Below are positions 7,834-32,452 of a stretch of 39,568 bases of DNA, piece by piece (the stretch's first letter is position 1; each line of letters starts with the position of its first letter). A program made the translations under genes and the position numbers. Source of the stretch: a virus. The notes beneath the pieces were generated by a model, which did not search any database, was not told the DNA's origin, and saw nothing but the letters and a program-made list of their open reading frames with translations. Location: IMG/VR virus record IMGVR_UViG_3300045988_155041. The stretch is one strand, 5' to 3'.

Positions 7834-7858
7834 AAAAAAGTCGAAGCAGAGGGTTAGA
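7834..7858 (+). promoter_or_regulatory. Conserved 25-nt motif, copy A (aaaaaagtcgaagcagaGGGTTAGA)
   Basis: One of four same-strand copies. It lies 45 nt upstream of the terS ATG and overlaps a weak hairpin plus T7 run. Confidence 0.5.
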
Positions 7859-7877
7859 AAGAGACCCTTCTTTTTTT
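7850..7877 (+). terminator. Weak intrinsic terminator after the Rep gene
   Basis: agggt / accct stem with a 9-nt loop, followed by tcttttttt. Confidence 0.45.
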
Positions 7878-7902
7878 GTACTCTTTAAGCAGGAGGTTTG
7901 AG

Positions 7903-8421
7903 ATGAGCAGGATAAATTGGCGTAAAGTTGAGCTTGATTATATAAAAGGCACGGTCTCATACAGAGATATCGCGAAAAAATATAAAATATCAACTCGTCA
8001 GGTTAGCGACCGAGGAAAAAAGGAAAATTGGGTAGAAAAGCGAAAACAATTTCGCGACGAAACCTACTCGGAGGCTCTCGCGCGTGCGCGCGTGACAGAA
8101 GTAGACAATTTAAAGCGCATAAACGGGCTGACGGAAAAGATGATTAGTCAGCTTGAGGAAGCCTTGGCCGACGCCTCGCAGTTTAAGAAATATATTGTTT
8201 CTAAGACGATATACAAAGACGGCGTGCCCGTAGAAGATGAAATGACAGAGAGGGAATTTACTAAATTTGACGCTAAGTCGGTTAAAAATCTCACTTCCGC
8301 GTTAAAGGATTTGGCCTCTATAACTAAAAGCATTACTGAAGACAAAGACGGAGACAATGAAATTTTAGTGAAATTCATATCCGACGATAAGGAGGACGGC
8401 ATGGAAGAATGGAACTTGTAA
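7903..8421 (+). CDS. terS: Terminase small subunit
   Basis: ATG behind aggaggtttgag. N-terminal HTH-like segment VSYRDIAKKYKISTRQVSDRGKKENW. Overlaps the terL start. Confidence 0.7.
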   Translation: MSRINWRKVELDYIKGTVSYRDIAKKYKISTRQVSDRGKKENWVEKRKQFRDETYSEALARARVTEVDNLKRINGLTEKMISQLEEALADASQFKKYIVSKTIYKDGVPVEDEMTEREFTKFDAKSVKNLTSALKDLASITKSITEDKDGDNEILVKFISDDKEDGMEEWNL

Positions 8422-9806
8422 TTAAATCGCCGCAGCCAAAACAAAAGGAGTTTTTGCGCGCCAATGAAAAATACATAGGATTTGGCGGAGCTCGGGGCGG
8501 AGGAAAGTCTTGGGCTGTCAGAACTAAAGCGAAACTGCTCGCGGTAACATATCCGGGAATAAAAATTTTGATTGTCAGAAACACCTACAAGGAACTTATA
8601 AACAATCATATCGACCCACTTAGAGGGGAACTTCCAAAGGGTATGGCGCGGTATAACAATACGGAGAAAATCTTTAGATTCATAAACGGAAGTACGATAA
8701 ACTTCGGATACTGTAATAACGACAAGGACCTTAACCAATATCAGGGTGCGGAATACGACGTTATTTTTATAGACGAAGCGACTCAGCTTGACGAGGTGTG
8801 GCTTAAGAAAATAACAGCGTGTCTCAGAGGCGTTAATAATTTTCCCAAAAGAATTTATTATACAATGAATCCGGGAGGCAGAAGTCACGCCTACATAAAG
8901 CGATTGTTTATAACAAGACAGTACAAAGAGGGAGAACGGCCGGAGGATTATAAATTTATACAGTCTCTGGTAAGCGATAATCAAAAGCTGTTAAGAGAGC
9001 AGCCGGATTATCTGAAGCAGCTGGAGGCGCTGCCGCCTAAACTTAGAAAGGCGTGGCTTTATGGAGATTGGGATATTTTTGAGGGACAATTTTTTGAGGA
9101 GTTTAGAGATAGACCCGACCATTACGACGACAGAAAATGGACCCATGTAATAAATCCTCTGCCTCTTGATATGATTAGAAAAATGAATATCTACAGGTCT
9201 TATGATTTCGGATACGCCAAGCCGTTTTCGTGCGGCTGGTGGGGAATTGACGCCGACGGCGTGGCATACAGGCTTGCTGAATTATATGGCTGTAAGAGGG
9301 ACGAACCTAACGAAGGTGTGAAGTGGGACGCGGCAAAGCAATTTAAAGAGATACGAAAGATAGAAGAAGAACATCCGTATTTTAAAGGTAAGACCATTTA
9401 TGGTATAGCAGACCCTGCCATATGGGACGCTTCGAGAGGTGAAAGTATAGCGGATACGGCCGCAAAGGAGGGCGTTTATTTTACTCCGGGAGACAATAAG
9501 AGAATAGCAGGCTGGATGCAGGTTCATTACAGAATGGCATTTGACAGCGAGGGTTATCCAATGATGTATGTGTTCAACACTTGTAAGGCGTTCATAAGGA
9601 CTATACCGGCATTATGTTATTCTGAGACTCACGTGGAAGACGTGGACACGGATATGGAAGACCATATCGCGGACGAGACGAGATATTTTATGATGTCAAG
9701 GCCATTGTCTCCGAGGACAACGGAAGTAAACGCTATACCTGAATTTGACCCGTTAAATCTATATGAGGAAAAGAGAAAGGAACTGATAAGCTATGGAAGA
9801 CGTTAA
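8409..9806 (+). CDS. terL: Terminase large subunit
   Basis: Walker A FGGARGGGKSW, Walker B-like VIFIDEA, and C-terminal nuclease-like acidic motifs. Confidence 0.9.
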   Translation: MELVIKSPQPKQKEFLRANEKYIGFGGARGGGKSWAVRTKAKLLAVTYPGIKILIVRNTYKELINNHIDPLRGELPKGMARYNNTEKIFRFINGSTINFGYCNNDKDLNQYQGAEYDVIFIDEATQLDEVWLKKITACLRGVNNFPKRIYYTMNPGGRSHAYIKRLFITRQYKEGERPEDYKFIQSLVSDNQKLLREQPDYLKQLEALPPKLRKAWLYGDWDIFEGQFFEEFRDRPDHYDDRKWTHVINPLPLDMIRKMNIYRSYDFGYAKPFSCGWWGIDADGVAYRLAELYGCKRDEPNEGVKWDAAKQFKEIRKIEEEHPYFKGKTIYGIADPAIWDASRGESIADTAAKEGVYFTPGDNKRIAGWMQVHYRMAFDSEGYPMMYVFNTCKAFIRTIPALCYSETHVEDVDTDMEDHIADETRYFMMSRPLSPRTTEVNAIPEFDPLNLYEEKRKELISYGRR

Positions 9807-11631
9807 GAACACTGAAGAAGAAATTATTGTTCCGCCTATAGGAGAAAAGGAAATAAGGAAAGCGGACGAGACTTTGAAAAAATATAAGACCGGCAAGAAA
9901 AATTTAGAAAACAGGGTTGTTGAAAATGAGAAGTGGTGGAAACTGCAAGGTGAAAAGGCGCAAGGAATAAGCAATGATTTTGAAAGCTCCTCCGCGTGGC
10001 TTTTCAACTGTATTGTATCAAAACACGCGGATTCAATAGACGCTTATCCTGAACCTAACATATTGCCGAGGGAACAAGGAGACGTGGAGGAGGCTAAGAG
10101 ATTATCATCTATTCTTCCGGTGGTATTAAAGTACAATAAGTTTCTTAATACCTACAGCAAGGTGAGCTGGGCAAAGATTAAAAGCGGTACGGGAATATAC
10201 GGGATATTCTGGGACAAAAGCAAGTTGAACGGACTTGGAGATATCGCCATAGAAAAAATTGATATATTAAATCTGTTTTGGGAACCGGGGAAAACTGAGA
10301 TACAAGATAGCAAGAACATATTTTACGTATCTCTCGCTGATATCGAGGATATTGAAGCGGCGTATCCTTTTATGAAGGATAAAATAAAACCGAATGAAGC
10401 AGTTATAAAGGAGTATGCCTACGAAGATAACGTTGATACAAAAAATAAGGCTTTGATTGTGGATTGGTACTATAAGAAATATGATTTGGCTACGAGAAGG
10501 ACTGTCGTGCACTATGTAAAGTATTGTAACGAGACTTTGCTGTTTTCAAGTGAGAATGATAAAAACTACAGCAGAGGGTTTTACGAACATGGGAAATATC
10601 CGTTTGTTGTAGATAATTTATTTCCTCAAGAGGGAAGTCCGGCCGGATTCGGCTATATAGATATTTGCAAAAATCCGCAGAAATATATCGACTCTCTTGA
10701 TAAAGCCATACTTGATAACGCTCTGGCAGGCTCGACGGCTCGGTGGTTTGTAAGGGACGACGCGAATGTAAATGTGGAAGAATATCTTAATTTTGGAAAT
10801 CCGATAGTAAAAGTCGCCGGCGCGGGTTCTCCGTCGGATTCGGTTATGCCGATTCCCACACAAGGCCTTCCGTCGATATATTATCAAGTCCTCCAAGGCA
10901 AAATAGACGAATTAAAAGAAACATCGGGAAATAGAGACGTAAACAATGGGGGAACGCCGTCGGGGGTTACGGCGGCTTCCGCTATAGCGGCAATGCAGGA
11001 GCAGTCGGGCAAACTATCCCGCGACGCTAATAAGATGTCGTATGAGAAATTTGAGGAGCTGATTGAAATCTGCATTGAACTTATAAGACAGTTTTATAAT
11101 CTTGAAAGGCAATTTAGAATAATCGGAGAATCCGGCAGAGAGGAATTTATAAGCTATTCAAATGCTAATATAAAGCCTCAAGTGCAGCCTATAAGCATTG
11201 ACGGCTCAAAGGGATACAGAGTTCCCGTATTTGATGTAGACGTAACGGCTCAAAAGGAGAATCTATATACAAAAACCGCGTACAATGAGTTTGCCTTGCA
11301 AATGTATCAAAATGGCTTTTTCAATCCTGATATGGCCTCGCAGGCTTTGGCCGCGCTTAATATAATGGACTTTAAAGGAAAAGAACGAGTGAAAGAGGAT
11401 ATAGAGAGGAACTATACCTTACAGCAGCAGCTCATACAGTGGCAGCAAATGGCGATTACTCTCGCGGCAAAATATGAGCCGCAAATAGCGAACGGGTTAG
11501 CTTCGTCTCTTACAGGCCAGATTATGCCGACAGGCGCGGATGAGGCAGATATAAAGAATGTGGAGGCAAAAGAGGACGCGCGTGTAGCAAACGCGAGAGG
11601 AGCGGCGCAAGAAAGGACGAAACCGAGATGA
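9793..11631 (+). CDS. Portal protein
   Basis: 612 aa, immediately after terL. Its size, position and sequence character fit a portal. Confidence 0.8.
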   Translation: MEDVKNTEEEIIVPPIGEKEIRKADETLKKYKTGKKNLENRVVENEKWWKLQGEKAQGISNDFESSSAWLFNCIVSKHADSIDAYPEPNILPREQGDVEEAKRLSSILPVVLKYNKFLNTYSKVSWAKIKSGTGIYGIFWDKSKLNGLGDIAIEKIDILNLFWEPGKTEIQDSKNIFYVSLADIEDIEAAYPFMKDKIKPNEAVIKEYAYEDNVDTKNKALIVDWYYKKYDLATRRTVVHYVKYCNETLLFSSENDKNYSRGFYEHGKYPFVVDNLFPQEGSPAGFGYIDICKNPQKYIDSLDKAILDNALAGSTARWFVRDDANVNVEEYLNFGNPIVKVAGAGSPSDSVMPIPTQGLPSIYYQVLQGKIDELKETSGNRDVNNGGTPSGVTAASAIAAMQEQSGKLSRDANKMSYEKFEELIEICIELIRQFYNLERQFRIIGESGREEFISYSNANIKPQVQPISIDGSKGYRVPVFDVDVTAQKENLYTKTAYNEFALQMYQNGFFNPDMASQALAALNIMDFKGKERVKEDIERNYTLQQQLIQWQQMAITLAAKYEPQIANGLASSLTGQIMPTGADEADIKNVEAKEDARVANARGAAQERTKPR

Positions 11632-11975
11632 TAGAAGTAATGTACGAAAGGCCTGAAGGGAAAGAAGGAATGTTTAGCCTTAAACTAAAAGGGCACGCGT
11701 GTTACGGCGGAAAAGGCGGCGATATTGTCTGCGCCGCGGCTTCGTTTATGGCTCAGTCGCTTGCGTTTAGGCTTGAAGATAACGAGATTAGAAAAATAAA
11801 AACAGACCTTAATTCGGGGAATATACTGATTGAGTGCTGTTCTTTAGGTGAAACGGTAGAGAAGAAAATAAGGATAGAGGAAATCTTTGAGTTCGCGGCT
11901 GCGGGTCTTAAAGTCTTGTCTGAAAATTTTGAAAAAAATTTGAAATTTTCAAAAAAAGTTGGCCCACAGGGTTAG
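11628..11975 (+). CDS. prp: Prp-like cysteine protease (ribosomal-processing protease homologue)
   Basis: Catalytic dyad context KGHACYG ... DIVCAAAS. Sits between the portal and scaffold genes. Confidence 0.8.
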   Translation: MIEVMYERPEGKEGMFSLKLKGHACYGGKGGDIVCAAASFMAQSLAFRLEDNEIRKIKTDLNSGNILIECCSLGETVEKKIRIEEIFEFAAAGLKVLSENFEKNLKFSKKVGPQG

Positions 11976-11976
11976 A
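11952..11976 (+). promoter_or_regulatory. Conserved 25-nt motif, copy B (aaaaaagttggcccacaGGGTTAGA)
   Basis: Overlaps the prp stop codon. TTAGAG is followed after 17 nt by GATAAT. It lies 70 nt upstream of the scaffold ATG. Confidence 0.5.
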
Positions 11977-12045
11977 GAAAGCGAGAAGCATTAAGATAAT
12001 ATATAAATATAAAGGGTCGCGCCTTAAACGCAGAAAGGAAAAAAT

Positions 12046-12888
12046 ATGAAAAAAAGAAAGATAAACCTGCATTTGCTCGACGGGGCTGAAGCAGGTTCCG
12101 CAGAAGGAAACGCTCAGGTCGCGGAGAGCGGTAAGGCAGAGACAGATGACCGGGTCGCCGCCGGAGAGGGAGCGAAGTCGAGCTTTAAAGACCTAATCGA
12201 AGGAGAGTATAAGGCCGATTTTGAAAAAGAGATTAAAAGCAGAGTTGAAAAAAGACTAAAAAATTCGGGAGAAGCGGAAGCGAAGTTGAAGGCTCTTAAC
12301 CCGACGCTCGGTTTGCTTGCTAAACGATACGGATTAAATGCTGAAGCGCTTGACTACGAAGCCTTGTCGAAGGCTATTACCGAAGACGACGCGTATTATG
12401 AACAAGCCGCTATCGCGGCGGGCATGGATGTTCAGACATTCAAGAAAATGGAACAAATCAAAATGCAGAACGCTCAGCTTGAGGCGGAAGTAAGACGTAA
12501 TAGAGCTGAGGCGGAGCAAAGGGAGATGTTTAACGCTTTAGCCGCGCAAGAAGCGGACGTGAAAGCGGTTTATCCGGGGTTTAGTCTGAGCAATGAACTT
12601 GGCAATAAAGAATTTGCGAGGCTGGTATTTAATAACGTGCCGGTTAAGACGGCGTATGAGGTTGTCCACAGAGACGAAATTATAGGCGGGGCAATGCAAT
12701 TCACGGCGAAAAAGGTTGAAAAGCAGATTGTCGATAATATTTTGGCCGGACAGCAAAGACCAACCGAGCAGGGCCTTTCAAAACAGCCGGGAGTAGTTAC
12801 GAAAGTTGACCCAAGCAAACTTACTAAAGAACAAAGAGAAGATATAAGAAAAAGGGTAATGCGGGGCGAACGTATAACATTCGATTAA
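12046..12888 (+). CDS. Scaffolding protein
   Basis: Position between prp and the capsid gene. Charged, helical, Ala/Glu/Lys-rich. N-terminus MKKRKINLHLLDGA resembles a Prp cleavage leader. Confidence 0.65.
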   Translation: MKKRKINLHLLDGAEAGSAEGNAQVAESGKAETDDRVAAGEGAKSSFKDLIEGEYKADFEKEIKSRVEKRLKNSGEAEAKLKALNPTLGLLAKRYGLNAEALDYEALSKAITEDDAYYEQAAIAAGMDVQTFKKMEQIKMQNAQLEAEVRRNRAEAEQREMFNALAAQEADVKAVYPGFSLSNELGNKEFARLVFNNVPVKTAYEVVHRDEIIGGAMQFTAKKVEKQIVDNILAGQQRPTEQGLSKQPGVVTKVDPSKLTKEQREDIRKRVMRGERITFD

Positions 12889-12913
12889 GATTTCCCCGCG
12901 CATAGGAGGAAAT

Positions 12914-13978
12914 ATGGAAAAGATAAAAAGAAATTTGAATTTACAGCTGCTTGCGGAGCCTAACACGCAAACGACTACTACAACGGGGAGCGGCAATGAT
13001 TTGTCTGCTGAAATGAAGACATATTATGATACCGAGCTTATAGAAATGGCGGGGCCTCAGCTCGTGCATCATCAGTTCGGAATGCAAAAGCCGATTCCTA
13101 AAGGCAAAGGAAAGAAGATTGAGTTCAGGAAGTTTTCAAACTTTAAGAAGGCTACAACTCCTTTGACCGAGGGCGTAACGCCGGACGGAAGCAAGATGAA
13201 CGTTACCACTATTGAGAAAGAAGTGGCGCAGTACGGCGATTACGTAACCATTTCCGACGTGCTTGAGCTTACCGCCATTGATGATTTTATCTTAGAAGCT
13301 ACGAACAAGCATGGACAGAACGCCGGACTTACGCTTGACACGATATGTAGAAATGAGATTAACTCCGGCACGAATGTGAGGTACGCGCCGAAACTTGCAG
13401 ACGGAACCGAGACAGAGGTTACTAAGAGGGCTGATATGGACGCTACGTGCGTACTTACGCCGGATTTGGTGGCAAAAGCCGTCGCCGACCTCAAAGGCAA
13501 CAACGCTCCTAAAATAGATGGAAGCTACATAGCCATTATTCACCCGTTCGTAGCATACGACCTGATGAAAAGCAAGGAATGGATAGATGTAGCTATATAC
13601 GCGGATAAAGAGAGGATTTTTGAGGGAGAGATAGGAAAGCTGAGAGGCGTAAGATTTGTGGAGACAACCGAGGCGAAGATATGGAACGACGCCACTTGCC
13701 CTATCGCTAAGGCTGCTTCGGACCCTGACCCGGCGGAGTATTATTCGGTGTTTTCCACACTGTTTATAGGAAAGGACGCCTACGCTAACGTAGACGTTAA
13801 CGGTGGCGGACTTGAAGTTATCGTAAAGCAGAAAGGCTCCGCGGGTTCGGCGGACCCGTTAAACCAGAGGTCTACGGTAGGCTGGAAGGGCATATACGCG
13901 GCTAAAATACGGATACCTGAATATATCGTAAGAGTAGAGAGCGTATCCGCGTATAGCAAGACGGCGGAAGCTAACTAA
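12914..13978 (+). CDS. Major capsid protein (HK97-fold type)
   Basis: 354 aa with a strong RBS. Its position and sequence character fit a capsid protein (possibly the N4-gp56-like family, from memory). N-terminal leader MEKIKRNLNLQLLA. Confidence 0.8.
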   Translation: MEKIKRNLNLQLLAEPNTQTTTTTGSGNDLSAEMKTYYDTELIEMAGPQLVHHQFGMQKPIPKGKGKKIEFRKFSNFKKATTPLTEGVTPDGSKMNVTTIEKEVAQYGDYVTISDVLELTAIDDFILEATNKHGQNAGLTLDTICRNEINSGTNVRYAPKLADGTETEVTKRADMDATCVLTPDLVAKAVADLKGNNAPKIDGSYIAIIHPFVAYDLMKSKEWIDVAIYADKERIFEGEIGKLRGVRFVETTEAKIWNDATCPIAKAASDPDPAEYYSVFSTLFIGKDAYANVDVNGGGLEVIVKQKGSAGSADPLNQRSTVGWKGIYAAKIRIPEYIVRVESVSAYSKTAEAN

Positions 13979-13990
13979 CGAGGTGAGAAA

Positions 13991-14311
13991 ATGGATAAAG
14001 AAATATTAGAAAATACGCCGGAGATTCCGAAGGAAGAAAAAAGTTCCGCGAAAGAAGTTAAGGCGTCAAACAAAAGGACGGTAAAAGAATCGGCCGGAAA
14101 AGATGAATCAGAAACGATTTTTATACCGAAAGGCGGACGTAACGAAGAAAATTTCGTTATAGTTACGATAAACGGAAAACGCTGGAAAATACAAAGAGGC
14201 GTATCGGTTGAAGTCCCTAAATGCGTCGCTGAAGTGTATAAACACAGCCTTGCCCAGCAGGCCTCGGCGGACGAGTATTTGGATTCGATTGAAAACAATA
14301 ACGCACGGTAA
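13991..14311 (+). CDS. Small head-associated protein (function unknown)
   Basis: Follows the capsid gene and has a strong RBS. A terminator follows it. Confidence 0.45.
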   Translation: MDKEILENTPEIPKEEKSSAKEVKASNKRTVKESAGKDESETIFIPKGGRNEENFVIVTINGKRWKIQRGVSVEVPKCVAEVYKHSLAQQASADEYLDSIENNNAR

Positions 14312-14318
14312 AATCAGT

Positions 14319-14346
14319 AAAGCGGGCAAATTGCCCGCTTTATTAA
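14319..14346 (+). terminator. Intrinsic terminator after the head operon
   Basis: aaagcgggc aaatt gcccgcttt, followed by att. Confidence 0.7.
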
Positions 14347-14358
14347 ATAGGAGGAAAG

Positions 14359-14736: not shown

Positions 14737-14748
14737 AGGGGTGAGAGA

Positions 14749-19604: not shown

Positions 19605-19642
19605 TCGCCTTCCCCGCAGCGGGATAGGCGGGGGAGGGAAAA

Positions 19643-19750
19643 ATGTTTAATCAAAAACAAGGATTTAAAGATGTGACTAATGTAATAAAGAAATTTACAG
19701 GGATAGAACCTATGATACCGGAATCTTTGAAAAAAATCGTCGGGGGGGGG
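19643..19750 (+). other. 36-codon ORF fragment ending in the second G9 tract (…ESLKKIVGGG)
   Basis: RBS gggggaggg. Its N-terminus QKQGFKDVTNVIKKFT resembles the N-terminus of the 19782 gene (LKQCLKDIVKIFT). The frame after the tract is ambiguous. Confidence 0.4.
19742..19750 (+). repeat. G9 homopolymer tract 2 (context tcGGGGGGGGGtactac)
   Basis: Counted directly. It has the same tcG9ta context as tract 1. Confidence 0.95.
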
Positions 19751-19781
19751 TACTACATGAGCGCAAAAAGGAGGTGGCGGT

Positions 19782-20156
19782 ATGCTGCCTTTAAAACAGT
19801 GCTTGAAAGATATTGTAAAAATATTTACGGAGCAAACATTAACAACGAAAAATCTGAGCGCGGCAGAAAACAGAGTATCCATAGATTCCGGCGGATATAT
19901 GGTTTTGGGAAATTGGGTGTTTGTACAGATAACTTTGAAAATAAAGGTAACTCTAAACGGAAACACTTATTGGACACTCATGGATGGCTTTCCGGAACCA
20001 AAAACACCATTTGCGGCCTTGGGGGCAAACTATCACTTCATGGACGCGCCCGTGAATGTTTCACTTTATGGCTCGGCCCTAACTATAACTTGTGGGAATC
20101 AGGAATTACAGCCGGGAAGAATGTTGGTGATAAGTGGATTTTACATAAAAGCGTAA
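19782..20156 (+). CDS. Small beta-rich tail-associated protein
   Basis: Strong RBS aaggaggtggcggt before the ATG. Its composition is protein-like, unlike the overlapping frame. Confidence 0.55.
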   Translation: MLPLKQCLKDIVKIFTEQTLTTKNLSAAENRVSIDSGGYMVLGNWVFVQITLKIKVTLNGNTYWTLMDGFPEPKTPFAALGANYHFMDAPVNVSLYGSALTITCGNQELQPGRMLVISGFYIKA

Positions 20157-20174
20157 GGTTTAAGAGGTGTCGTC

Positions 20175-20597
20175 ATGCTTAATATAAAGACGGCGCTTAC
20201 GCAACTCGCTAACAGAGTTAAGGCGGAAAAGGACTATGTAGTAGAGTATAAGATAAACGACGCGGATAAATGGTCGTATAGAAAATGGGCGAGTGGTATA
20301 GCGGAATGCTGGTTGTTTTATTACAACACTATAGCGCCATATTCTTCAGGCGGAGTTGATAATTTTAAATATTCTTATACTGCCGCTTTTGATTTGCCAT
20401 TTGCGTTTGTAACTAATAGCGATAAAAATCATCATTGCGGATATTCAAAAACAGCATCTGTGTCTGTGAGCAATGGCACGGGTGTTGTAATTTCTGGACA
20501 TTTAAACGATACTCCGTCGAAGGTTCACCTCCATTGGACAAGTAATACGACGGGCGTTAGCTATATAAATATTCACTTAATGGGAAGGTGGAAATAG
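20175..20597 (+). CDS. Small tail-associated hypothetical protein
   Basis: RBS aagaggtg. Last ORF of the tail block. Confidence 0.5.
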   Translation: MLNIKTALTQLANRVKAEKDYVVEYKINDADKWSYRKWASGIAECWLFYYNTIAPYSSGGVDNFKYSYTAAFDLPFAFVTNSDKNHHCGYSKTASVSVSNGTGVVISGHLNDTPSKVHLHWTSNTTGVSYINIHLMGRWK

Positions 20598-20620: not shown

Positions 20621-20629
20621 TGATATAAT
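20621..20629 (+). promoter_or_regulatory. Extended -10 promoter element TGATATAAT
   Basis: Exact TGnTATAAT. The -35 region (tagcaa) is weak. Confidence 0.5.
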
Positions 20630-20635
20630 GAGAAA

Positions 20636-20908
20636 GTCAAGAGGACGAGCGAAAGCGGTTGGCCTTCCGAGATTCAAAAGGGATTTTGAATTTTAAGGAA
20701 GGTGGTAATATGGTGAGAATCACTATTTTTTTAGGAAATTCAGAATAACCATTTACATAAAAAATAACCGCCACGGCTGCGAACCCTTAGACGGCTATTT
20801 TAGTCACTGACGGTTAACCGTTTTTAGCGGTTTCCTCTTGACCTAAATATATCATAATGAAAATATAAACGCAAGAGATAATTAGACCAACCGCGAAGGT
20901 TGGTTTTT
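20636..20908 (+). ncRNA. Candidate structured non-coding RNA (~270 nt), class unknown
   Basis: Lies between an extended -10 promoter and an intrinsic terminator. A 10-bp perfect long-range helix pairs 20636..20645 with 20833..20842. Nested hairpins are present and no ORF exceeds 12 codons. Confidence 0.4.
20886..20908 (+). terminator. Intrinsic terminator
   Basis: accaacc gcgaa ggttggt, followed by tttt. Confidence 0.7.
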
Positions 20909-20924
20909 ATTATGCAATATTTGA

Positions 20925-20949
20925 TATTTTGTCGGGGCAGCGGGTTAGA
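20925..20949 (+). promoter_or_regulatory. Conserved 25-nt motif, copy C (tattttgtcggggcagcGGGTTAGA)
   Basis: Shares a 17-nt exact block, ggcagcgggttagaaaa, with copy D. It lies 70 nt upstream of the ATG at 21019. Confidence 0.5.
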
Positions 20950-21018
20950 AAATAATAAATAAATTTGAGAAAATATAGATAAAGTAAAAGTTAGACTATG
21001 AAAAGAAAGGGAGATAAA

Positions 21019-28200: not shown

Positions 28201-31200
28201 AATAAAGCTGCTTTAAGAGAGTTACAAAACAGAGTGAAGGAGATCCCAAGAGGCACGTATGAGAATAAGGCTACGGGATACAGGGCTGGCATAAATGGCA
28301 AAACGATAGGAAAAATTCTTAATCCAAAACCTAATTTTAATCCGTGGGGGAAAAATTACATTGATAATTTGAATGCGGCGCTATATTTACCAAATCTTTT
28401 TAAAAATGCTGTATATATAGACACCATAGAAAACCAGAAAAGTAAGAATGCCAATAAGCAAATAAGAGGTTTTCATCATTTTATAGCACCTATAACGATG
28501 AAAGATAATAATTATAGAGTAAAAATAACCGCAAGAGAAAAAGAAAACTCAAATCTTCTATATATTGTAGATACTGAAATACTACAAAATAAAGAAGATG
28601 TCGCATTACCAAACAATATGAATGGTAATTTCTTGACGACATCTTTTAAAATTAGTATACCCGACCTCATAAAAGATGTCAAGATATATAATTATGATAT
28701 GCAGGAAAATCAGACATATACATACGAGGATATAAAATTTTCCATAAAAGAAAACGCTACAAAGGCGGGAGAACTCCTTGAAGAAAACAGAAAGTTAAAA
28801 AGGATAAACGAAAATCTCATAGCGCAGTTTAAGATTACAGATGGCATGAAAATAAGAAACAATATAATAGAGGGTATAGCCCAAAGCCTTTTAGAAGACT
28901 ACGATAGCGAATATACTATTGACGCTTTGAAAAATGACCTTATGGCTCTATATAACTATATAGAAACAGCCGAAAATCTTACGATTCAAGACATAGCTGC
29001 CGGAGCGCGTATAGTAGGAGAAAGAATAGTAGAAAACAGAAACAAAAAAGGGATAACAGACGAAACAAAAGAAATCCTTGAAGACATTAGAACTGTCAAG
29101 ATAACTCTGGACGATGTTCAGAAAAAGGAGACCGCATATCATTTCGGAAGTTATGACAATTTCAGAAGAAAGAATTTCGGAAAGTTGAGAGTTACTGATA
29201 ACGGAACTGCCCTTGATACGAAGTGGCAGGAATGGGCGGTAGCCTATCCTCAACATTTCGATCCCAATATTTCTCCGGCGGACCAACCTATTAAGTTAAA
29301 CGATATAGTAGAAAGCCTTAGCGAAAGCTATATCGATACTCTCGGCATGAACGAAGACGAAGCTGCCATAATGGTAGGCCTTGACGTATACGAAAGGTAT
29401 TTCGATGTTCCGAGCGTAAAGACCTTCGCGGATAAAAAGAAAGCTGAAATGGACAAACTGAAGGCCGAGACCAAGGTTCTTATAAGGAGCGTAAAGGAAG
29501 AATACAGAGATAAAACGAAGAAATGGGCGGCAGACAGAAGGGAAACTGAATTAAAGCAAAGCTATAAAAGACGTATAACGACGGTAGTGAGAAGACTGAA
29601 TAGCACAATGGAGGCAAACAGTTACAGTAAAAATATACCGGACGCGATGAAAGGAGCCGTGTCGGAATTTATTAAGCCTTTTTTAAATGATAAAGAGGTC
29701 TTTGAAGAAGGAAGAAGTGCGAGGCTTGCTGATATGTATAACAGAATCGGCGAGAGAATGAAAGATGCGGAAGGAAATGAAGCGAGCAAGGATGACACAT
29801 ATGTTGACTTCATTTCCGCATACGACAAGGACATAGAGGATAGCATAAAGACCTTTAAAGAAGTTCTCAAAGACAAAACCCTCAATGACCTTAACAGCAG
29901 CGAGCTTTCTATAATCAAGGACACTCTTGACAATCTCTCAAAGATGTTAGAAACAGCAAATACTGTTTTTATCGCCGGAAAGAAAGCGAAGCTGGCGGAA
30001 GTAGGCGACGCTACCATAGCAGAGCATACTAAGGAAAAAGTGAAAGAAAGGCTGGCTATAACCGAAAATCAGTATTACAAGACCGTCAAATCCTTTGCAG
30101 ATAGTAATATTACGCCGGGATATTTTTTTAAAAGGCTCGGAGGGGCTTTTAGCGACCTATATAACGATTTTTTGGACGGTCAGGATAAATATGCCAACAT
30201 CATGCAAAACTCAAGAGAGAAGTTTAAGGAGATAGCTGAAAAGAACGGATATTATAATTGGGACAAGAAACAGAGGATAAAAATAGAAATAGGAGGAGAC
30301 GAACACGAGGTAACTCTTGAGCAGTTAATGCTCCTATATGCTACAGGCAGGCGTGAGCAGGAAAACGGCATGGAGTCTATGCACATATTTTCTGGCGGAG
30401 TCACGTTCAGAAATGCGAAAAAGACGAAAGAAAAGAAAATAGGGCCTATAAATGGGAAAATAAAATACACGGACAAACAAACCGGAATACCTATTACCTT
30501 TGACGAATATATAGAGGCGTGCGGAAAGCTGACGGAAAAACAAATCAATTTTACGGACGAGCTTGTAAAATATTTGTCTGAGGATATGGCCTCTTACGGC
30601 AATCAGGTAACGAGAGAAATGTACGGTATCAGTAAGTTCAATGAGAAATATTACATACCTTTTAACTCGGATTCTAATTTTATATACAGCAATTCCGGAG
30701 GTACGCAAGGGCTTGAAAACAGGCTCAAACACGCCTCATATACAAAAAATCTGACTTACGGGGCTAATAACCCGCTGATTTTAGACGATATTACGGACGT
30801 CTGGTCGGCGCATGTGGCGCAAATGGCTATGTACAGTTCGTTGATGAGGCCTATTGAAGAATTAAACAAGGTTCTTAATTATAAGAATGAGAATGGAATT
30901 ACTGTAAAGGCGCAACTTAATGCGACATATACAGGTGACACGGTTAATTACATACAAACCTTTATGCGAGACGTAAACGGAGGTTTGAGTTTGCCTAAAG
31001 AAGAACAGGTGATGAAGAAGCTGACTACACAGTTTAAAAAGGCCGCCACTTATGCTTCAATGTCGGTAGCCGTTCAGCAGCCTACGTCAATACTCAGGGC
31101 AATGTGTATGATAAATCCAAAATATTTTGCGGGCAGAAAAATAGAGGCGCCAAAAAAAGAGAAAAGACTTCAAACCTCGTCGTCGGCCGATTACGAACAA

Positions 31201-32430
31201 CTGAAACGATACGCTCCTATAGCTATAATAAAGCAAATGGGAAGATTTGACACAATGGTAGGAATGACGAGTAAAGACTATCTTACTCGCCGCGAATACG
31301 AAACGGTTAAGGGGAATGTAAAAAATATAGCTACAGATAAGCAAATGCTTCAGGATATATTAGGTTACGGGGCGAGCAAGGGAGACGAGATAGGCTGGGC
31401 CTCTTTGTGGAACGCCTGCAAGCGCGAGACTGCTGATAGGACTAAATTAAAAGGAGAGGCGCTTCTGCAAGAAGCGGGAAAACGCTTTAGAGAGGTGGCG
31501 AACTTAACGCAGGTTTATGATTCTGTTTTGTCAAAATCACAGCTTATGAGGCAGAAGACGTGGGGCGTGTCAATGATAACCGCGTTTATGGCCGAACCGA
31601 CGATAAGTCTTAATATGCTTATTGACGGAGTAATGGACGCGAAAAAGACGAAAAAAGCGAAATACGCGACTAAAACTCTCGCCGCTTTTCTAACTTCACA
31701 GCTGGCGGCGGCTATTCTTAAGTCATTTGTAACAGCCGCGAGAGACGACGACGAGGACAAAACCTATTGGGAAAGATTTTTCGGAAAGGCGGTCGGCGAG
31801 TCTTGGGGTAATATAAATCCTTTGTCATTAGTGCCTATGGCGAGGGATATAAACTCGCTTTTTGAAGGTTATTCCGTAGAAAGAGCAGACGTAGAGGTTA
31901 TTTCAAAGCTGGTAGACGCGGCTAAAAAAATATACGATACGGATACTCCTATAGGAGAGAAAATATCAAATATGATATTTGCCGTAGGCGATTTTGTAGG
32001 AGTACCGGCAAGAAACATTTGGAGAGATTTCAGGGCCATAGGTAATGTAGTAAGCGAGGCGGCGGACCCAAACAGGAAAGAGACGACGGCTTACGGAATA
32101 GAAGAATCTGTATTAGAAGAACTCGGAATGAAAAAAAGCTATACGGATTACGCCGAAGACTTATATAAGGTAGTAGATAAAGATTATGACGGTCAAAAGA
32201 AGATTCTTGAAGAATTGTCGGAAAGCTATAAACGGGAGATAGAAAACGGAGGGGACGCCGATAAGGTCAGGAGTAAAGTAAGAGGAGCTATAACAAGATA
32301 TCTAAAGCCTAAATATCAAGAGGCGGATAATTCCGAAAAAATAAAAATAAAGAAACTTCTTTTCAGAATACGAATAGGAGGAAAGGCGATTTATGATAAC
32401 GAAGATATAAAAAAATGGAACGAAGAATAA
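22249..32430 (+). CDS. Giant polyvalent virion protein (3,393 aa) with a zincin peptidase, an ART-type domain and a triplicated module
   Basis: One uninterrupted ORF with a strong RBS. Domain motifs are listed in the sub-features. Confidence 0.9.
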   Translation: MAKTKAIEYYAKKAKMLAQESIDYERENVVKYYSQKAKALAQESIDYERQVKDSAQKREIKKLASTYGFTESNIANASPFVQQKITTSENKKNTNITPRYKTAKETKEAIENLNKDIATNGMAFPAIEHGEAYQSFLKARSEYTKEYKKEKKTLTDEYNFLKDKEDEAKTKDLPEDLLELLDEYNRGHIDTTYNPFSYARSQDGYKYFGKELKYDGYTEKELKELAAARKRKTDEIDTIKALQEAYELSKESPVQGSIGSLVDNFAGGATGLFDLAGQYIKDPDRDFNVNTMSLRKSQTANAARSAVSEDIETPLLRKLYDVGMSIGDMVTASAGTLGYGTLPMFFAEAGVQNAIDLTERGTDSSTALAGGLAAGTFEVLFEKLSLGNLKALSRMNTSTLKGFGKEFAKTVGVNASEEAATEATNILYDTLANGDISNYSLRKEQIMAEGKTEEEAKTEIFNEFLSQIGDAALSGGLMGGMLAPAGIAVGNYRYSKQGKNLSEGQTEALKDYSSTSGGEAGRLYKEYQSKYSDKNAALGMMKEAADNEVISNLIESESLNDITEAYDNAVKLNTDEGTRRILDNVYNARVSQIFNKETAGETNAVVNSNGHTIGVNRSEEIRGGRNYTLSKDDVEVIKRTAGAKLQDGSEVIINGITDDNGELKYKTIEGKAVAPSEVTFNNDTTRELYQKAAEIEEPARNLFINTYPGDVSVGKFKNGFENFYDSGKLSGAVSFDMAKEMNSAFLENVINESAARKAYEAGQASITGNVNINDSIIRKSTAGTVVDNTVVNHLDEGVKELIGSIAKKTGIDFELTDEIIAGETARGERVYANGYFDKAVVKAVISGDADNAAEAAAHETTHFAFALNNKDMKKVSDLCIAYLAETSDAKTAEALIENKMKNVETREDAIEELTSDAIAGIISSEEGAKAFIEYLETDKNLTTAEKRTILEKIKDLIERVLESIKALAGQGHISDTAKVFAEAEYDRVSEILNLYTKALDKASEKLRKGERAEEGAGKVNTKFSLKNKNITEDTKIPFVIAEEYIDVPKNNKAALSELQNKVKQLPRSTYENKATGYRADITEETIKKAINPTHKNFNKHSSKYINNLNATLNFSELFENAVYIDTIENQKSKNANKNIKGFHHFVAPLRMKGADYRTLITAREKKNSNTLYVLGVEVLPMKKKMSQSATSLSGSRSKETSSMITIPDLIRDVKIYNYDTQENQTYTQENIKFSFIGEKALNKNNKSLEKAKEMESAGKTSEDIRKNTGWFRGGDNKWRFEIDSSKMRVDHRGKFHRNSAIRRRWELFDKLHVTNTATKADFQELMQLDRTLGTLTEPKKLGDLIDYPQLFEAYPQLADMDFSFVNLGDMDGGYSPLVNKIFIDESLKEDSQQMRQTLIHEIQHAIQEAEGFAKGSNLIGLNKAIEEAKRIEEKTDKQLDVAIDELFRLLDESGYIEQYGEDIDVLAEKEQDRIRAFFKENNKDGAEALEKVIKLWEENTRAITETARLQKISSHDYYMNSAGEIEARDVSNRLYFTEEQIRNIRPDIDNDAAIVRFSLKNKNITEDTKIPFVIAEEYIDVPKNNKAALSELQNKVKQLPRGTYENKATGYKANINSNTIKKALTPTHKKFNWFSEEYINNLNGILRLSELFKTAIYVDTISPMKNKKDNPNMKGFHHFVAPLGMKGGAYRALITAREKENSNTLYVLRVEVLPIEKTPLLTASSIGSQSVRAFSEISIPDLIRDVKIYNYDTQESQIYTQEDIKYSLLDSSGRKLTKKQAEYFKGSKARDDNGNLQIVYHGTNEAGFTVFNRNINFYSDSKELAKTYSNTNGLYEGYANIKNPLVIDVKGEKWSGIPVEYIELENIEDIFNEYGVDTFEDGGMERTSTADIASAIDEAVEEGQLNYDGIIFKNIYDEGSYSSGIGIILANDYVTFNKNQFKNITNENPTDDPDIRFSLKNKNITEDTKIPFVIAERYVDVPKNNKAALRELQNRVKEIPRGTYENKATGYRAGINGKTIGKILNPKPNFNPWGKNYIDNLNAALYLPNLFKNAVYIDTIENQKSKNANKQIRGFHHFIAPITMKDNNYRVKITAREKENSNLLYIVDTEILQNKEDVALPNNMNGNFLTTSFKISIPDLIKDVKIYNYDMQENQTYTYEDIKFSIKENATKAGELLEENRKLKRINENLIAQFKITDGMKIRNNIIEGIAQSLLEDYDSEYTIDALKNDLMALYNYIETAENLTIQDIAAGARIVGERIVENRNKKGITDETKEILEDIRTVKITLDDVQKKETAYHFGSYDNFRRKNFGKLRVTDNGTALDTKWQEWAVAYPQHFDPNISPADQPIKLNDIVESLSESYIDTLGMNEDEAAIMVGLDVYERYFDVPSVKTFADKKKAEMDKLKAETKVLIRSVKEEYRDKTKKWAADRRETELKQSYKRRITTVVRRLNSTMEANSYSKNIPDAMKGAVSEFIKPFLNDKEVFEEGRSARLADMYNRIGERMKDAEGNEASKDDTYVDFISAYDKDIEDSIKTFKEVLKDKTLNDLNSSELSIIKDTLDNLSKMLETANTVFIAGKKAKLAEVGDATIAEHTKEKVKERLAITENQYYKTVKSFADSNITPGYFFKRLGGAFSDLYNDFLDGQDKYANIMQNSREKFKEIAEKNGYYNWDKKQRIKIEIGGDEHEVTLEQLMLLYATGRREQENGMESMHIFSGGVTFRNAKKTKEKKIGPINGKIKYTDKQTGIPITFDEYIEACGKLTEKQINFTDELVKYLSEDMASYGNQVTREMYGISKFNEKYYIPFNSDSNFIYSNSGGTQGLENRLKHASYTKNLTYGANNPLILDDITDVWSAHVAQMAMYSSLMRPIEELNKVLNYKNENGITVKAQLNATYTGDTVNYIQTFMRDVNGGLSLPKEEQVMKKLTTQFKKAATYASMSVAVQQPTSILRAMCMINPKYFAGRKIEAPKKEKRLQTSSSADYEQLKRYAPIAIIKQMGRFDTMVGMTSKDYLTRREYETVKGNVKNIATDKQMLQDILGYGASKGDEIGWASLWNACKRETADRTKLKGEALLQEAGKRFREVANLTQVYDSVLSKSQLMRQKTWGVSMITAFMAEPTISLNMLIDGVMDAKKTKKAKYATKTLAAFLTSQLAAAILKSFVTAARDDDEDKTYWERFFGKAVGESWGNINPLSLVPMARDINSLFEGYSVERADVEVISKLVDAAKKIYDTDTPIGEKISNMIFAVGDFVGVPARNIWRDFRAIGNVVSEAADPNRKETTAYGIEESVLEELGMKKSYTDYAEDLYKVVDKDYDGQKKILEELSESYKREIENGGDADKVRSKVRGAITRYLKPKYQEADNSEKIKIKKLLFRIRIGGKAIYDNEDIKKWNEE
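24820..24834 (+). other. First HExxH motif (HETTH, aa 858-862) in the giant protein
   Basis: AAEAAAHETTHFAF. Possibly a second zincin-like module. Confidence 0.35.
25312..25949 (+). repeat. Intragenic module R1 (aa 1022-1234)
   Basis: KFSLKNKNITEDTKIPFVIAEEYIDVPKNNKAALSELQNKVKQLPR...KGFHHFVAPL...ITAREK.NSNTLYVL...IPDLIRDVKIYNYDTQE...IKFS. Confidence 0.9.
26053..26838 (+). other. Zincin-like metallopeptidase domain of the polyvalent-protein type
   Basis: GWFRGGDNKWRFEID ... LIHEIQHAIQEAEGFAKG (HExxH at nt 26446..26460) ... GEIEARDV. Confidence 0.65.
26914..27549 (+). repeat. Intragenic module R2 (aa 1556-1767)
   Basis: Paralogous to R1. Only the first residue and one further residue among the first 47 differ from R1, despite many synonymous nucleotide changes. 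Confidence 0.9.
27571..28080 (+). other. ADP-ribosyltransferase-like domain (ART-PolyVal type)
   Basis: EYFKGSKARDDNGNLQIVYHGT...FYSDSKELAKTY...IKNPLVID...IYDEGSY. The pattern is recalled from ART domains of polyvalent proteins. Confidence 0.6.
28114..28743 (+). repeat. Intragenic module R3 (aa 1956-2165)
   Basis: RFSLKNKNITEDTKIPFVIAERYVDVPKNNKAALRELQNRVKEIPR...RGFHHFIAPI...ITAREKENSNLLYIV...IPDLIKDVKIYNYDMQE...IKFS. Confidence 0.9.
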
Positions 32431-32452
32431 AAAGACGAGGCAGCGGGTTAGA
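32428..32452 (+). promoter_or_regulatory. Conserved 25-nt motif, copy D (taaaaagacgaggcagcGGGTTAGA)
   Basis: Starts at the stop codon of the giant gene. It forms the 5' arm and loop of the terminator hairpin. TATAAT lies at 32473..32478, and the motif's GGGTTAGA core ends 61 nt before the holin ATG. Confidence 0.5.

What the first reader, a model, noticed from the sequence alone, without database searches (positions are those of the whole stretch)
7834..32452. A 25-nt motif occurs four times on one strand, each at the 5' edge of a late gene block
The four copies are:

| Copy | Coordinates | Sequence |
|---|---|---|
| A | 7834..7858 | aaaaaagtcgaagcagaGGGTTAGA |
| B | 11952..11976 | aaaaaagttggcccacaGGGTTAGA |
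| C | 20925..20949 | tattttgtcggggcagcGGGTTAGA |
| D | 32428..32452 | taaaaagacgaggcagcGGGTTAGA |

The invariant positions give wAAAAAG-N2-G-N3-CA-N2-GGGTTAGA. Copies C and D share a 17-nt exact block.

All four copies are on the + strand, and I found no reverse-strand copy by eye. Each lies 45-70 nt upstream of the first start codon of a functional block:
- packaging (terS, 7903);
- head (scaffold, 12046);
- PG-binding and giant protein (21019);
- lysis (holin, 32514).

The embedded TTAGAR is followed after 17-19 nt by -10-like hexamers: TGTACT, GATAAT, GAAAAT and TATAAT.

In copy D the motif also forms the 5' arm and loop of a terminator hairpin. In copy A its GGGTTAGA 3' end overlaps a weaker hairpin in the same way.

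The pattern fits an activator-dependent or phage-specific late-promoter element. It could instead be an antitermination or RNA-processing signal. I could not identify a cognate regulator among the ORFs.
Basis: partly seen in the sequence, partly recalled or inferred. Interest (0 to 1): 0.75.

Follow-up and report, generated by a model that had tools for sequence, protein, structure and literature searches.

The report
Phage late promoters sharing a GGGTTAGA box
Four gene blocks of a gut-bacterial virus (packaging, head, injection, lysis) are each preceded by the same unusual promoter box; related viruses keep their own versions in the same places, so it looks like an ordinary late-gene switch whose activator protein is still unknown.

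Summary
GGGTTAGA occurs four times, always on the + strand. There is one copy in each intergenic gap of at least 50 nt between genes of the late cluster. No weaker copies exist. A matrix built only from other phages ranks these four sites 1-4 of 79,064 positions.

The functional core is shorter than 25 nt. It is a G-run followed by TAGA(A/G)A in the -35 position. A spacer of 17-18 nt follows, then a TAnnnT -10 hexamer. Relatives in gut and rumen Clostridia, with portals 43-66% identical, carry the same or genome-specific versions in the same gaps: GGGGTAGAGAA, GGGATAGAAAA, GGGGAGAAAAA, GGGGGGATATAT.

Intrinsic terminators often lie just upstream of the box or overlap it. The four window copies share no common RNA fold.

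Best reading: these are factor-dependent late promoters of host-sigma type with a non-canonical -35 box, each heading an insulated transcription unit.

No known late-activator or sigma family is encoded. The only early protein I found conserved across the sampled relatives (apart from an SLT-like protein shared with one) is an uncharacterised 71-aa four-cysteine protein (6656-6871). It usually lies just before terS. It is a weak candidate regulator.

This is a new member of a known kind and is of moderate interest.

The parts
7834..7858 (+). The core box GGGTTAGAAA is at 7851-7860.
7851..7884 (+). Predicted late promoter PA. GGG at 7851-7853, -35 slot TAGAAA at 7855-7860, spacer of 18 nt, -10 TACTCT at 7879-7884. 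The inferred start is near 7891. The terS ATG is at 7903.
   Evidence: Sequence. Ranked 3rd of 79,064 by the relatives-only PWM.
7843..7877 (+). Weak terminator-like hairpin (GAGGGTT...GACCCTT) plus a T7 tract. It overlaps the box and spacer of PA and lies after the Rep gene.
   Evidence: terminator scan; -9.1 kcal/mol, z -0.4
11952..11976 (+). Motif copy B. TAG at 11973-11975 is also the stop codon of the Prp protease gene.
11969..12002 (+). Predicted late promoter PB. GGGTTAGAGA box, spacer of 18 nt, -10 TAATAT at 11997-12002. Alternatively a spacer of 16 nt and GATAAT at 11995-12000. It heads the scaffold and capsid block, whose ATG is at 12046.
   Evidence: (TAGAGA-16-GATAAT listed); ranked 1st
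20884..20906 (+). Intrinsic terminator-like hairpin plus T-tract immediately upstream of copy C.
   Evidence: sequence
20925..20949 (+). Motif copy C.
20942..20974 (+). Predicted late promoter PC. GGGTTAGAAA box, spacer of 17 nt, extended -10 TGaGAAAAT at 20966-20974. It heads the PG-binding gene (ATG 21019) and the 3393-aa polyvalent protein.
   Evidence: ranked 4th; for the gene identities
32428..32452 (+). Motif copy D. It starts at the stop codon of the giant gene.
32437..32473 (+). Strong intrinsic terminator of the giant gene. The 9-bp stem pairs 32437-32445 with 32457-32465. The loop GGUUAGAAAAA holds the box. The U-tract runs to 32473.
   Evidence: -18.7 kcal/mol, z -4.4, 0 of 200 shuffles fold as well
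32445..32478 (+). Predicted late promoter PD. GGGTTAGAAA box, spacer of 18 nt, -10 TATAAT at 32473-32478. It heads the holin and endolysin block, whose ATG is at 32514.
   Evidence: TAGAAA-18-TATAAT, 10 of 12; ranked 2nd; for holin and endolysin
6656..6871 (+). Gene for a 71-aa four-cysteine protein (C12, C25, C53, C60) with no known family. It is the one early protein found conserved across the sampled relatives. It is a weak candidate for the cognate regulator.

Best explanation
**What the four copies are.** They are the -35 regions of four late promoters of a ~39.6-kb temperate podovirus-like phage of Clostridia. Each promoter has three parts:
- a G-run at about -40 to -38;
- a non-canonical -35 hexamer TAGA(A/G)A;
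- after a spacer of 17-18 nt, a host-sigma-A-type -10 hexamer (TAnnnT, sometimes TGn-extended).

The promoters head four transcription units:
- packaging (terS, terL, portal, Prp);
- head and tail;
- the PG-binding gene plus the giant polyvalent protein;
- lysis.

**Role of the terminators.** Terminators sit just upstream of the boxes or overlap them. They insulate each unit from read-through. Expression then depends on initiation at the box.

**Proposed mechanism (inferred, not shown).**
- Host RNA polymerase with sigma A uses the -10 element.
- The conserved asymmetric GGGnTAGA box is read by a phage-specified factor made early after induction. This could be an activator touching sigma region 4 or the alpha subunit. 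It could also be a factor that retargets -35 recognition.
- All four blocks would therefore switch on together, and would stay silent in the lysogen.

**Candidate factor.** The best candidate, though a weak one, is the conserved 71-aa four-cysteine protein encoded at 6656-6871.
For: **Shown by sequence statistics in the window**
- There are exactly four copies, all on the + strand.
- There is one copy in each late intergenic gap of at least 50 nt.

**Shown by comparison with relatives**
- The box recurs in the syntenic gaps of relatives.
  - The same box GGGTTAGA is in L009, L010 and L016.
  - L093 has the one-base variant GGGGTTTAGAGAAA.
  - Genome-specific variants are GGGGTAGAGAA (L003-5, L045), GGGATAGA (L025, L051, L104), GGAATAGAGAAA (L029), GGGGGCATAG (L011), GGGGGGATATAT (L008) and GGGGAGAAAAA (L026, L038, L033, L063).
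  - Sources.
- Gap pairs within one genome share at least 10 of 12 box positions in 10 of 76 cases. Between genomes the figure is 27 of 3,459.
- TAnnnT lies 17-18 nt after TAGARA in 13 of 17 syntenic hits. The background is 2.7% (p = 1e-17).
- A two-block PWM built from 16 sites in 10 other phages ranks the window's copies 1-4 of 79,064 positions.
- In 1.26 Mb of loci not used for training, hits of at least 16 bits are 7 on the gene strand and 1 on the other.
- Footprint of the window against L009: the box, the -10 and the 5'UTR hairpin are conserved, but the spacer is not.

**Contrast with other promoters of this phage**
- The cI/cro and integrase promoters are canonical: TTGACA-17-TATATT, TTGACT-17-TATAAT and TTGACA-17-TATAAT.

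**Independence from coding constraint**
- The TAG of the box is the Prp stop codon in only three of the relatives examined. In the others the box follows the stop codon.

**No common RNA fold**.

**Established knowledge**
- Phage late promoters with a dedicated box near -35 and a host-type -10 are well known (review passages in PMC3152322).
- The SPO1 late consensus is CGTTAGA-N17-19-GATATT (PMC3601020).
Against: - There are no transcript 5' ends or expression data. Initiation at these sites is inferred.
- No member of a known late-activator or sigma family is encoded in the window. Pfam, PHROGs and NCBIfam were searched.
- The candidate four-cysteine protein has no detectable DNA-binding fold.
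  - AF2 pLDDT is 53-63.
  - Foldseek against PDB finds nothing below E = 3.
- Its sequence similarity to relatives does not track their box type (against the boxes).
- In some GC-rich relatives its gene overlaps the terS start. That would also fit a packaging accessory role.
- TAGAAA matches TTGACA at 4 of 6 positions. Some sigma-A activity without any factor cannot be excluded.
- Copy A has a poor -10 (TACTCT) and a leader of only about 12 nt.
- A degenerate box-like GCAGCGGGATAG sits in a hairpin loop at 19616-19627 with no room for a -10.
- Only about a quarter of the sampled family shows a recognisable box.
Confidence: 0.72

Rival explanations
1. The sites are plain sigma-A promoters with no dedicated factor. 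They are moderately good host promoters (TAGAAA-N18-TATAAT). Their timing would be set by something else, such as genome copy number, relief of read-through or occlusion, or supercoiling. The G-run would be a lineage habit or part of the adjacent terminator stems.
For: - The generic sigma-70 scan scores copy D at 10 of 12 and copy B at 9 of 12.
- TAGARA keeps T-35, G-33 and A-32 of the consensus.
- No regulator was found.
- In several sites the G-run forms the 5' arm of a hairpin.
Against: - A holin and endolysin promoter active without control would be lethal in a lysogen.
- The box is identical within a genome, differs between genomes and never drifts towards TTGACA. The same phage's early promoters are canonical TTGACA.
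- The G-run is kept in copies with no hairpin: B, C, L010 and L016.
Confidence: 0.1
2. The box is an operator for a repressor. It would be the asymmetric binding site of a prophage-encoded repressor that shuts four otherwise active late promoters, in the manner of the dispersed C1 operators of P1.
For: - The position overlapping -35 suits a repressor as well as an activator.
- The motif is asymmetric and dispersed.
Against: - There is no copy, and no weak PWM hit, in the immunity region 39000-39171 where the cI-like and cro-like proteins must act.
- The -35 hexamer deviates from consensus in the same way at every site. This is typical of activator-dependent promoters.
- No extra repressor-like gene was detected.
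Confidence: 0.06
3. The box acts as RNA. It would work in the transcript as an antiterminator loading site, a processing site or a terminator component. This is suggested by its position in hairpin loops next to U-tracts.
For: - Copy D lies in the loop of a strong terminator. Copy A overlaps a weak one.
- All three L003 copies, L051, L008 (Prp-scaffold gap copy) and the degenerate site at 19616 also place the box in or next to a hairpin.
Against: - Copies B and C have no such hairpin, and the four copies fold differently.
- At copy C, L008 (pre-terS copy), L010, L011 (pre-terS copy), L038, L093 and L104 the box lies downstream of the terminator.
- The fixed 17-18 nt distance to TAnnnT has no meaning for an RNA signal.
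- There is no Rfam match.
- No NusG, N or Q-like gene was found.
Confidence: 0.06
4. The copies are module-boundary homology or duplication relics. They would be short shared sequences at module junctions that promote recombinational shuffling, or copies of one ancestral intergenic segment, with no regulatory role.
For: - The copies sit exactly at module borders.
- Copies C and D share 17 identical nt.
Against: - Relatives with portals only 43-66% identical keep a box at the same borders while the flanks have diverged.
- The strand is constant and the box is coupled to a -10 hexamer.
Confidence: 0.03

Closest known systems
Bacillus phage SPO1 late promoters (gp33/gp34-dependent), consensus CGTTAGA-N17-19-GATATT (PMC3601020)
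   Same: - The -35 element shares GTTAGA with the window's GGGTTAGA.
- The spacer length is the same.
- The -10 is A/T-rich; copy B has GATAAT.
- The sites lie upstream of late structural genes of a phage of Gram-positive bacteria.
   Different: - No gp34-like or any other sigma-like protein was detected in the window.
- The -10 here follows TATAAT rather than GATATT.
- Relatives vary the box (GGGGTAGAG, GGGGAGAAA), so CGTTAGA is not the family consensus.
- SPO1 is a large lytic myovirus. This is a 40-kb temperate podovirus-like phage.
P2/186 late promoters activated by Ogr/B (PMC3931495; PMC3152322)
   Same: - Four late promoters each head one late operon.
- They share a short conserved element upstream of a host-type -10.
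- In P2 the activator is a ~72-aa four-cysteine zinc protein. The only conserved early protein here is a 71-aa four-cysteine protein.
   Different: - The P2 element is a dyad, TGT-N12-ACA, centred near -55. Here the box is asymmetric and lies at -40 to -30.
- The cysteine spacing differs: CX2CX22CX4C in Ogr against C-X12-C-X27-C-X6-C here.
- Pfam gives no Ogr_Delta hit.
- The host is Gram-negative.
- The regulatory role of the four-cysteine protein here is conjecture.
T4 middle promoters (MotA box with AsiA; from my own knowledge)
   Same: A host-sigma -10 is combined with a phage-specific box that replaces the canonical -35 hexamer.
   Different: - The MotA box is centred at -30 and has a different sequence.
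- No MotA or AsiA homologues are detectable.
- The mechanism here is untested.
RinA / ArpU / Alt-type late activation in temperate phages of Gram-positive bacteria (PMC3152322)
   Same: - It occurs in temperate phages of Firmicutes.
- The regulator gene classically lies immediately upstream of terS, and the activated promoter lies just before terS. The four-cysteine gene has this position in 25 of the 32 relatives that carry it.
   Different: - Those systems drive one long late operon from a single promoter. Here four promoters share the box.
- There is no RinA, ArpU or Alt homologue.

Membership tests
Bacterial sigma-70/sigma-A type promoter | A -10 hexamer resembling TATAAT, with A at position 2 and T at position 6. 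| tested here: met
   The hexamers are TACTCT, TAATAT, GAAAAT and TATAAT in the window. In relatives 13 of 17 syntenic sites have TAnnnT.
Bacterial sigma-70/sigma-A type promoter | A -35 hexamer resembling TTGACA, 16-18 nt upstream of the -10. | tested here: inconclusive
   The spacing of 17-18 nt is met. The hexamer is invariably TAGA(A/G)A, 4 of 6 matches. The phage's early promoters have TTGACA or TTGACT.
Bacterial sigma-70/sigma-A type promoter | Transcription starts about 7 nt downstream of the -10. | not testable with these tools
   No transcript data are available.
SPO1-type late promoter (gp33/gp34 sigma) | -35 CGTTAGA and -10 GATATT separated by 17-19 nt. | tested here: inconclusive
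   GTTAGA is present in all four copies and the spacing fits. The -10 matches GATATT poorly. Relatives replace TTAGA by GTAGA, ATAGA or GGAGA.
SPO1-type late promoter (gp33/gp34 sigma) | The phage encodes a gp34-like sigma factor and gp33. | tested here: not met
   No early ORF gives a sigma-like hit in Pfam, PHROGs or NCBIfam. These profile searches could miss a very divergent sigma.
Ogr/Delta-dependent late promoters | TGT-N12-ACA dyad centred near -55. | tested here: not met
   The upstream halves of the four copies share no dyad.
Ogr/Delta-dependent late promoters | An Ogr_Delta zinc-finger activator with CX2CX22CX4C. | tested here: not met
   The four-cysteine protein has a different cysteine spacing and no Pfam hit.
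Intrinsic (Rho-independent) terminator | A GC-rich hairpin followed directly by a U-tract. | tested here: inconclusive
   The feature is met at copy D (-18.7 kcal/mol, z -4.4). It is weakly met at copy A and absent at B and C. The motif as such is therefore not a terminator.
Antitermination sites (nut, put or qut-like) | A conserved RNA hairpin or box located between a promoter and the terminators it overrides. | tested here: not met
   There is no shared fold. In many cases the box lies downstream of the adjacent terminator. No N, Q or NusG-like gene was found.
Rolling-circle replication origin or nick site of the adjacent Rep (PF23343) | The motif occurs together with the Rep gene. | tested here: not met
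   The loci fetched from L003-5, L010 and L016 have the box but no Rep gene next to terS.

The most novel reading that the evidence does not exclude
The G-run/TAGA box would be read by the 71-aa four-cysteine protein. This would define a new family of small zinc-binding late-gene activators, or -35 retargeting factors, in temperate phages of gut Clostridia. The family has 2,521 clusters at 50% identity, no Pfam model and no structural relative. It would be a Gram-positive functional analogue of Ogr/Delta that evolved independently.
Probability: 0.2. Interest if true: 0.6.

Novelty: new member of a known kind. Interest (0 to 1): 0.4.

Why it matters
- **A usable signature.** The phage family is common in human and ruminant gut Clostridia, including Faecalibacterium, Butyrivibrio and Oscillospiraceae, and has no cultured member. 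The box gives a sequence signature for its late transcription units.
- **A testable model.** It yields a concrete model of how four structural and lysis blocks are switched on together and kept insulated by terminators.
- **Better annotation.** The signature can improve annotation of late genes in gut viromes.
- **A starting point for the regulator.** It gives a handle for finding the missing regulator by reporter or pull-down assays.
- **If the candidate is right.** A large uncharacterised protein family would gain a function.
- **If not.** The result is a routine addition to the catalogue of phage late promoters.

Tried and rejected
**Alternative identities for the motif**
- Known RNA family or tRNA-linked element: no Rfam hit at gathering threshold, and no tRNA.
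- Origin or nick site of the adjacent rolling-circle Rep: rejected, because relatives without that Rep gene next to terS keep the box.
- SPO1-type sigma: the consensus resemblance was confirmed from the literature, but no sigma-like ORF was found.

**Work on the four-cysteine protein**
- Two AF2 runs gave pLDDT 52.6 and 63.2.
- Foldseek against PDB was uninformative. Foldseek against BFVD returned only uncharacterised homologues.
- A PDB sequence search found nothing.
- Longer family members carry no informative fused domain.
- I looked for covariation between the four-cysteine sequence and the box type. There is none. L010 and L016 share the window's box at 31-34% identity, while L003 at 46% has a different box.

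**Searches for closer relatives**
- INPHARED by DNA and by protein found no cultured relative.
- An exact 17-mer search in IMG/VR gave 0 hits.
- A metagenome scan with the portal gave only 2 distant loci.
- Relatives found through the endolysin are mostly other phage types that lack the box upstream of the lysis genes.

**Other**
- The generic sigma-70 and terminator scans are not enriched over shuffles, so they were used only for individual sites.
- A literature search for the motif strings found only unrelated primers and similar matches.

Full report
**What the window is**

The window is 39.6 kb at 40% G+C and looks like a complete temperate phage genome.

- **Lysogeny module:** a serine integrase (34127-35536, - strand), a MazE/PIN toxin-antitoxin pair, and divergent cI-like and cro-like genes (38571-38999, - strand; 39172-39405, + strand).
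- **Early region:** it runs across the window ends to about 7.8 kb.
- **Late cluster:** all on the + strand, from 7.9 to 34 kb.
  - terS, terL, a P22/SU10-type portal and Prp protease;
  - scaffold, major capsid and tail proteins;
  - a PG-binding protein and a 3393-aa polyvalent protein (LPD3, LPD23, ART-PolyVal);
  - holin and amidase.
- Sources.
- Related contigs are about 39.8 kb.
- No cultured phage is close. The best named hit is Bacillus phage PK1, with a portal 28% identical.
- Eighty related prophages were fetched from genomes of Oscillospiraceae, Lachnospiraceae (Butyrivibrio), Faecalibacterium, Acutalibacteraceae and other Clostridia.

- GGGTTAGA occurs four times, all on the + strand, against 1.05 expected.
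- The degenerate 25-mer finds three of the four copies against 0.15 expected.
- In a leave-one-out PWM test each omitted copy ranks directly after the three training copies among 79,080 positions. The next best site scores 11 bits against 36-41 bits. There are therefore exactly four copies and no weaker ones.
- Intergenic DNA is 7.2% of the window. The four copies occupy all four gaps of at least 50 nt between late genes.

**The anatomy is that of a promoter**

With TAGA(A/G)A taken as the -35 hexamer, the window sites are as follows.

| Site | -35 hexamer | Spacer | -10 hexamer |
|---|---|---|---|
| A | TAGAAA | 18 | TACTCT |
| B | TAGAGA | 18 | TAATAT |
| C | TAGAAA | 17 | GAAAAT, preceded by TGa |
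| D | TAGAAA | 18 | TATAAT |

The GGG lies at about -40 to -38.

The immunity and integrase promoters of the same phage are canonical:
- TTGACA-17-TATATT at 39044;
- TTGACT-17-TATAAT at 39166, - strand;
- TTGACA-17-TATAAT at 35605, - strand.

The late set is therefore a separate promoter class within one genome.

**Relatives carry the box in the same gaps**

Relatives with the same gene order carry a box in the same gaps.

| Relatives | Box | Where |
|---|---|---|
| L003/L004/L005 (portal 59% identical) | GGGGTAGAGAA | before terS, after Prp and before the PG-binding gene |
| L008 | GGGGGGATATAT | two gaps |
| L011 | GGGGGCATAG | two gaps |
| L009, L010, L016 (Butyrivibrio) | GGGTTAGA | L010 and L016: before terS and after Prp; L009 (4.3-kb contig): after Prp only |
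| L025 | GG(G)ATAGAAAA | two gaps |
| L029 | GGAATAGAGAAA | after Prp (a second copy, AAGAATAGAGAA, before terS) |
| L051 | GGGATAGAGAAA | after Prp |
| L045 | GGGGTAGAAA | two gaps |
| L026, L038 (Faecalibacterium), L033, L063 | GGGGAGAAA(AA) | L026 and L038: before terS and after Prp; L033: after Prp; L063: before terS |
| L093 | GGGGTTTAGAGAAA | directly after its giant gene, the position of copy D |
| L104 (found through the four-cysteine protein, not the portal) | terminator, then GGGATAGATA-N17-TACGAT | before terS |

Three tests avoid picking sites by eye.

1. Box-regex hits chosen only because they lie in syntenic gaps have TAnnnT at 17-18 nt in 13 of 17 cases. The intergenic background is 2.7% (p = 1e-17).
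2. The -35 regions of candidate promoters in two gaps of one genome match at 10 or more of 12 positions in 10 of 76 pairs. Between genomes the figure is 27 of 3,459 pairs.
3. A two-block PWM was built from 16 sites in 10 other phages, with no window sequence. It ranks the window's B, D, A and C as numbers 1-4 of 79,064 positions on both strands.

In 1.26 Mb of loci not used for training, hits of at least 16 bits are 7 on the gene strand and 1 on the other.

Only the G-run and TAGA(A/G)A are conserved across relatives. The wAAAAAG..G...CA half of the 25-mer is specific to this genome. In relatives that region is simply A/T-rich, or is the tail of a terminator.

The TAG of copy B is the Prp stop codon. 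That overlap is seen only in three of the relatives examined, so coding constraint does not explain the box.

**Relation to terminators**

- Copy D sits in the loop of a strong terminator of the giant gene (-18.7 kcal/mol, z -4.4). The U-tract of that terminator runs into the -10.
- Copy A overlaps a weak hairpin plus a T7 tract.
- Copy C lies 19 nt downstream of a separate terminator (20884-20906).
- Copy B has no terminator.
- In relatives about two thirds of sites have a terminator immediately upstream of the box or overlapping it (my reading of the sequences).
- The four window copies fold in four different ways.

The constant features are the DNA box and its distance to the -10, not an RNA structure. 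My interpretation is terminator-promoter modules. Each late block is insulated from upstream read-through and is re-initiated from its own late promoter.

**The regulator**

- No early ORF matches a known late activator, sigma factor or antiterminator family.
- Apart from an SLT-like protein shared only with L003, the only early protein shared with relatives is the 71-aa protein at 6656-6871. Its invariant residues are C12, P13, C25, C53 and C60.
- An HMM of this protein finds it in 32 of 44 loci that have at least 7 kb upstream of the portal. In 25 of those 32 the gene ends 1.6-2.6 kb before the portal, which is directly upstream of terS. That is the classical position of late activators such as RinA and ArpU (PMC3152322).
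- In the L025, L029 and L104 group the gene lies in the middle of the early region.
- The family is large: 2,521 clusters at 50% identity. Almost all members are stand-alone proteins of 70-80 aa, with no Pfam model and no name.
- Structure prediction was poor (pLDDT 53-63; three strands then two helices). Fold searches were uninformative.
- Two facts argue for caution.
  - In some GC-rich relatives the gene overlaps the terS start.
  - Its similarity does not track box type.
- I therefore give it about 0.2 as the cognate factor.
- The parallel with P2 is suggestive but is only an analogy. P2 has four late promoters and the 72-aa four-cysteine activator Ogr (PMC3931495). Its box type and position, its cysteine spacing and its host all differ.

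**Comparison with known systems**

The nearest sequence resemblance is the SPO1 late promoter, CGTTAGA-N17-19-GATATT (PMC3601020). Membership fails because no gp34-like sigma was found and the -10 differs.

In how it works, the arrangement resembles T4 middle promoters: a host-type -10 plus a phage-specific box in the -35 region. It also resembles class II activator-dependent promoters. The arrangement of four co-regulated late promoters resembles P2.

This is a new member of a known kind. It is the first description I could find for this uncultured phage family.

**Confidence**

| Reading | Confidence |
|---|---|
| The four sites are factor-dependent late promoters | 0.72 |
| Sigma-A promoters with no dedicated factor | 0.10 |
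| Repressor operator | 0.06 |
| RNA-level signal | 0.06 |
| Recombination relic | 0.03 |

**Still unexplained**

A degenerate GCAGCGGGATAG sits in a hairpin loop at 19616-19627 with no room for a -10 hexamer.

Noticed in passing
window 20622-20910: A strongly structured element of about 210 nt lies at 20636-20848 (MFE -87 kcal/mol for the 291-nt stretch 20625-20915 that was folded, z -5.9). It is closed by GTCAAGAGGA...TCCTCTTGAC. It has its own extended -10 (TGATATAAT, 20622-20630) and is followed by the terminator at 20884-20906. It encloses a mini-ORF of 12-22 codons whose RBS is paired. It is conserved in L003-5 and in otherwise unrelated phage contigs L097 and L098, with 5 compensatory pairs. 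There is no Rfam family. It may be a new phage ncRNA or a type I toxin-antitoxin-like module.
   Followed up: partly
window 12015-12045 (5'UTR of the scaffold gene): A conserved hairpin of the form TCG-stem-loop-stem-CAGA lies immediately before the scaffold-gene RBS. The stem sequence covaries across 16 relatives: 3 of 5 pairs show double changes in 6-8 sequences. Some relatives carry two tandem copies. It may be a translational operator, reminiscent of scaffold autoregulation in P22.
   Followed up: partly
window 19609-19630: CCCCGCAGCGGGATAGGCGGGG forms a hairpin whose loop holds a degenerate copy of the motif. It shares GCAGCGGG with copies C and D. It lies in the 38-nt gap before ORF 19643-20182. 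It is too close to the start codon for a -10 hexamer. It is unexplained.
   Followed up: partly
window 6656-6871: A 71-aa four-cysteine protein (CPFY...CEG...C...C) belongs to a family of 2,521 clusters at 50% identity, with no Pfam, PHROG or NCBIfam model and no structural match. It is the hallmark early gene of this phage family and usually lies directly upstream of terS.
   Followed up: yes
window 6993-7820: A rolling-circle replication initiator (PF23343, phrog_3584) is inserted between the four-cysteine gene and terS. Among the loci fetched it occupies this position only in this phage and its near-identical copy L007; elsewhere a Rep of this family was seen only far upstream in L011, and the BLAST cluster of the Rep spans five loci in all. 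It is unusual for a 40-kb tailed temperate phage.
   Followed up: no
window 37001-36967 (- strand): AAGGTGTAGACA-N17-TATGAT lies inside ORF 36721-37338 (- strand). It is the fifth-best hit of the relatives-only late-promoter PWM (15.9 bits) and scores 10 of 12 as a sigma-70-like site. It may be an internal promoter of the lysogeny module.
   Followed up: no
L073, L070, L042, L075 and L086 (relatives): Some relatives carry a different repeated element in the same gaps. It consists of short tandem repeats (for example AGTGAAT or GCAGAGT units) followed by a palindrome such as GGGGAAGCTTCGCTTCC. This suggests a different late-control system in that subclade.
   Followed up: no
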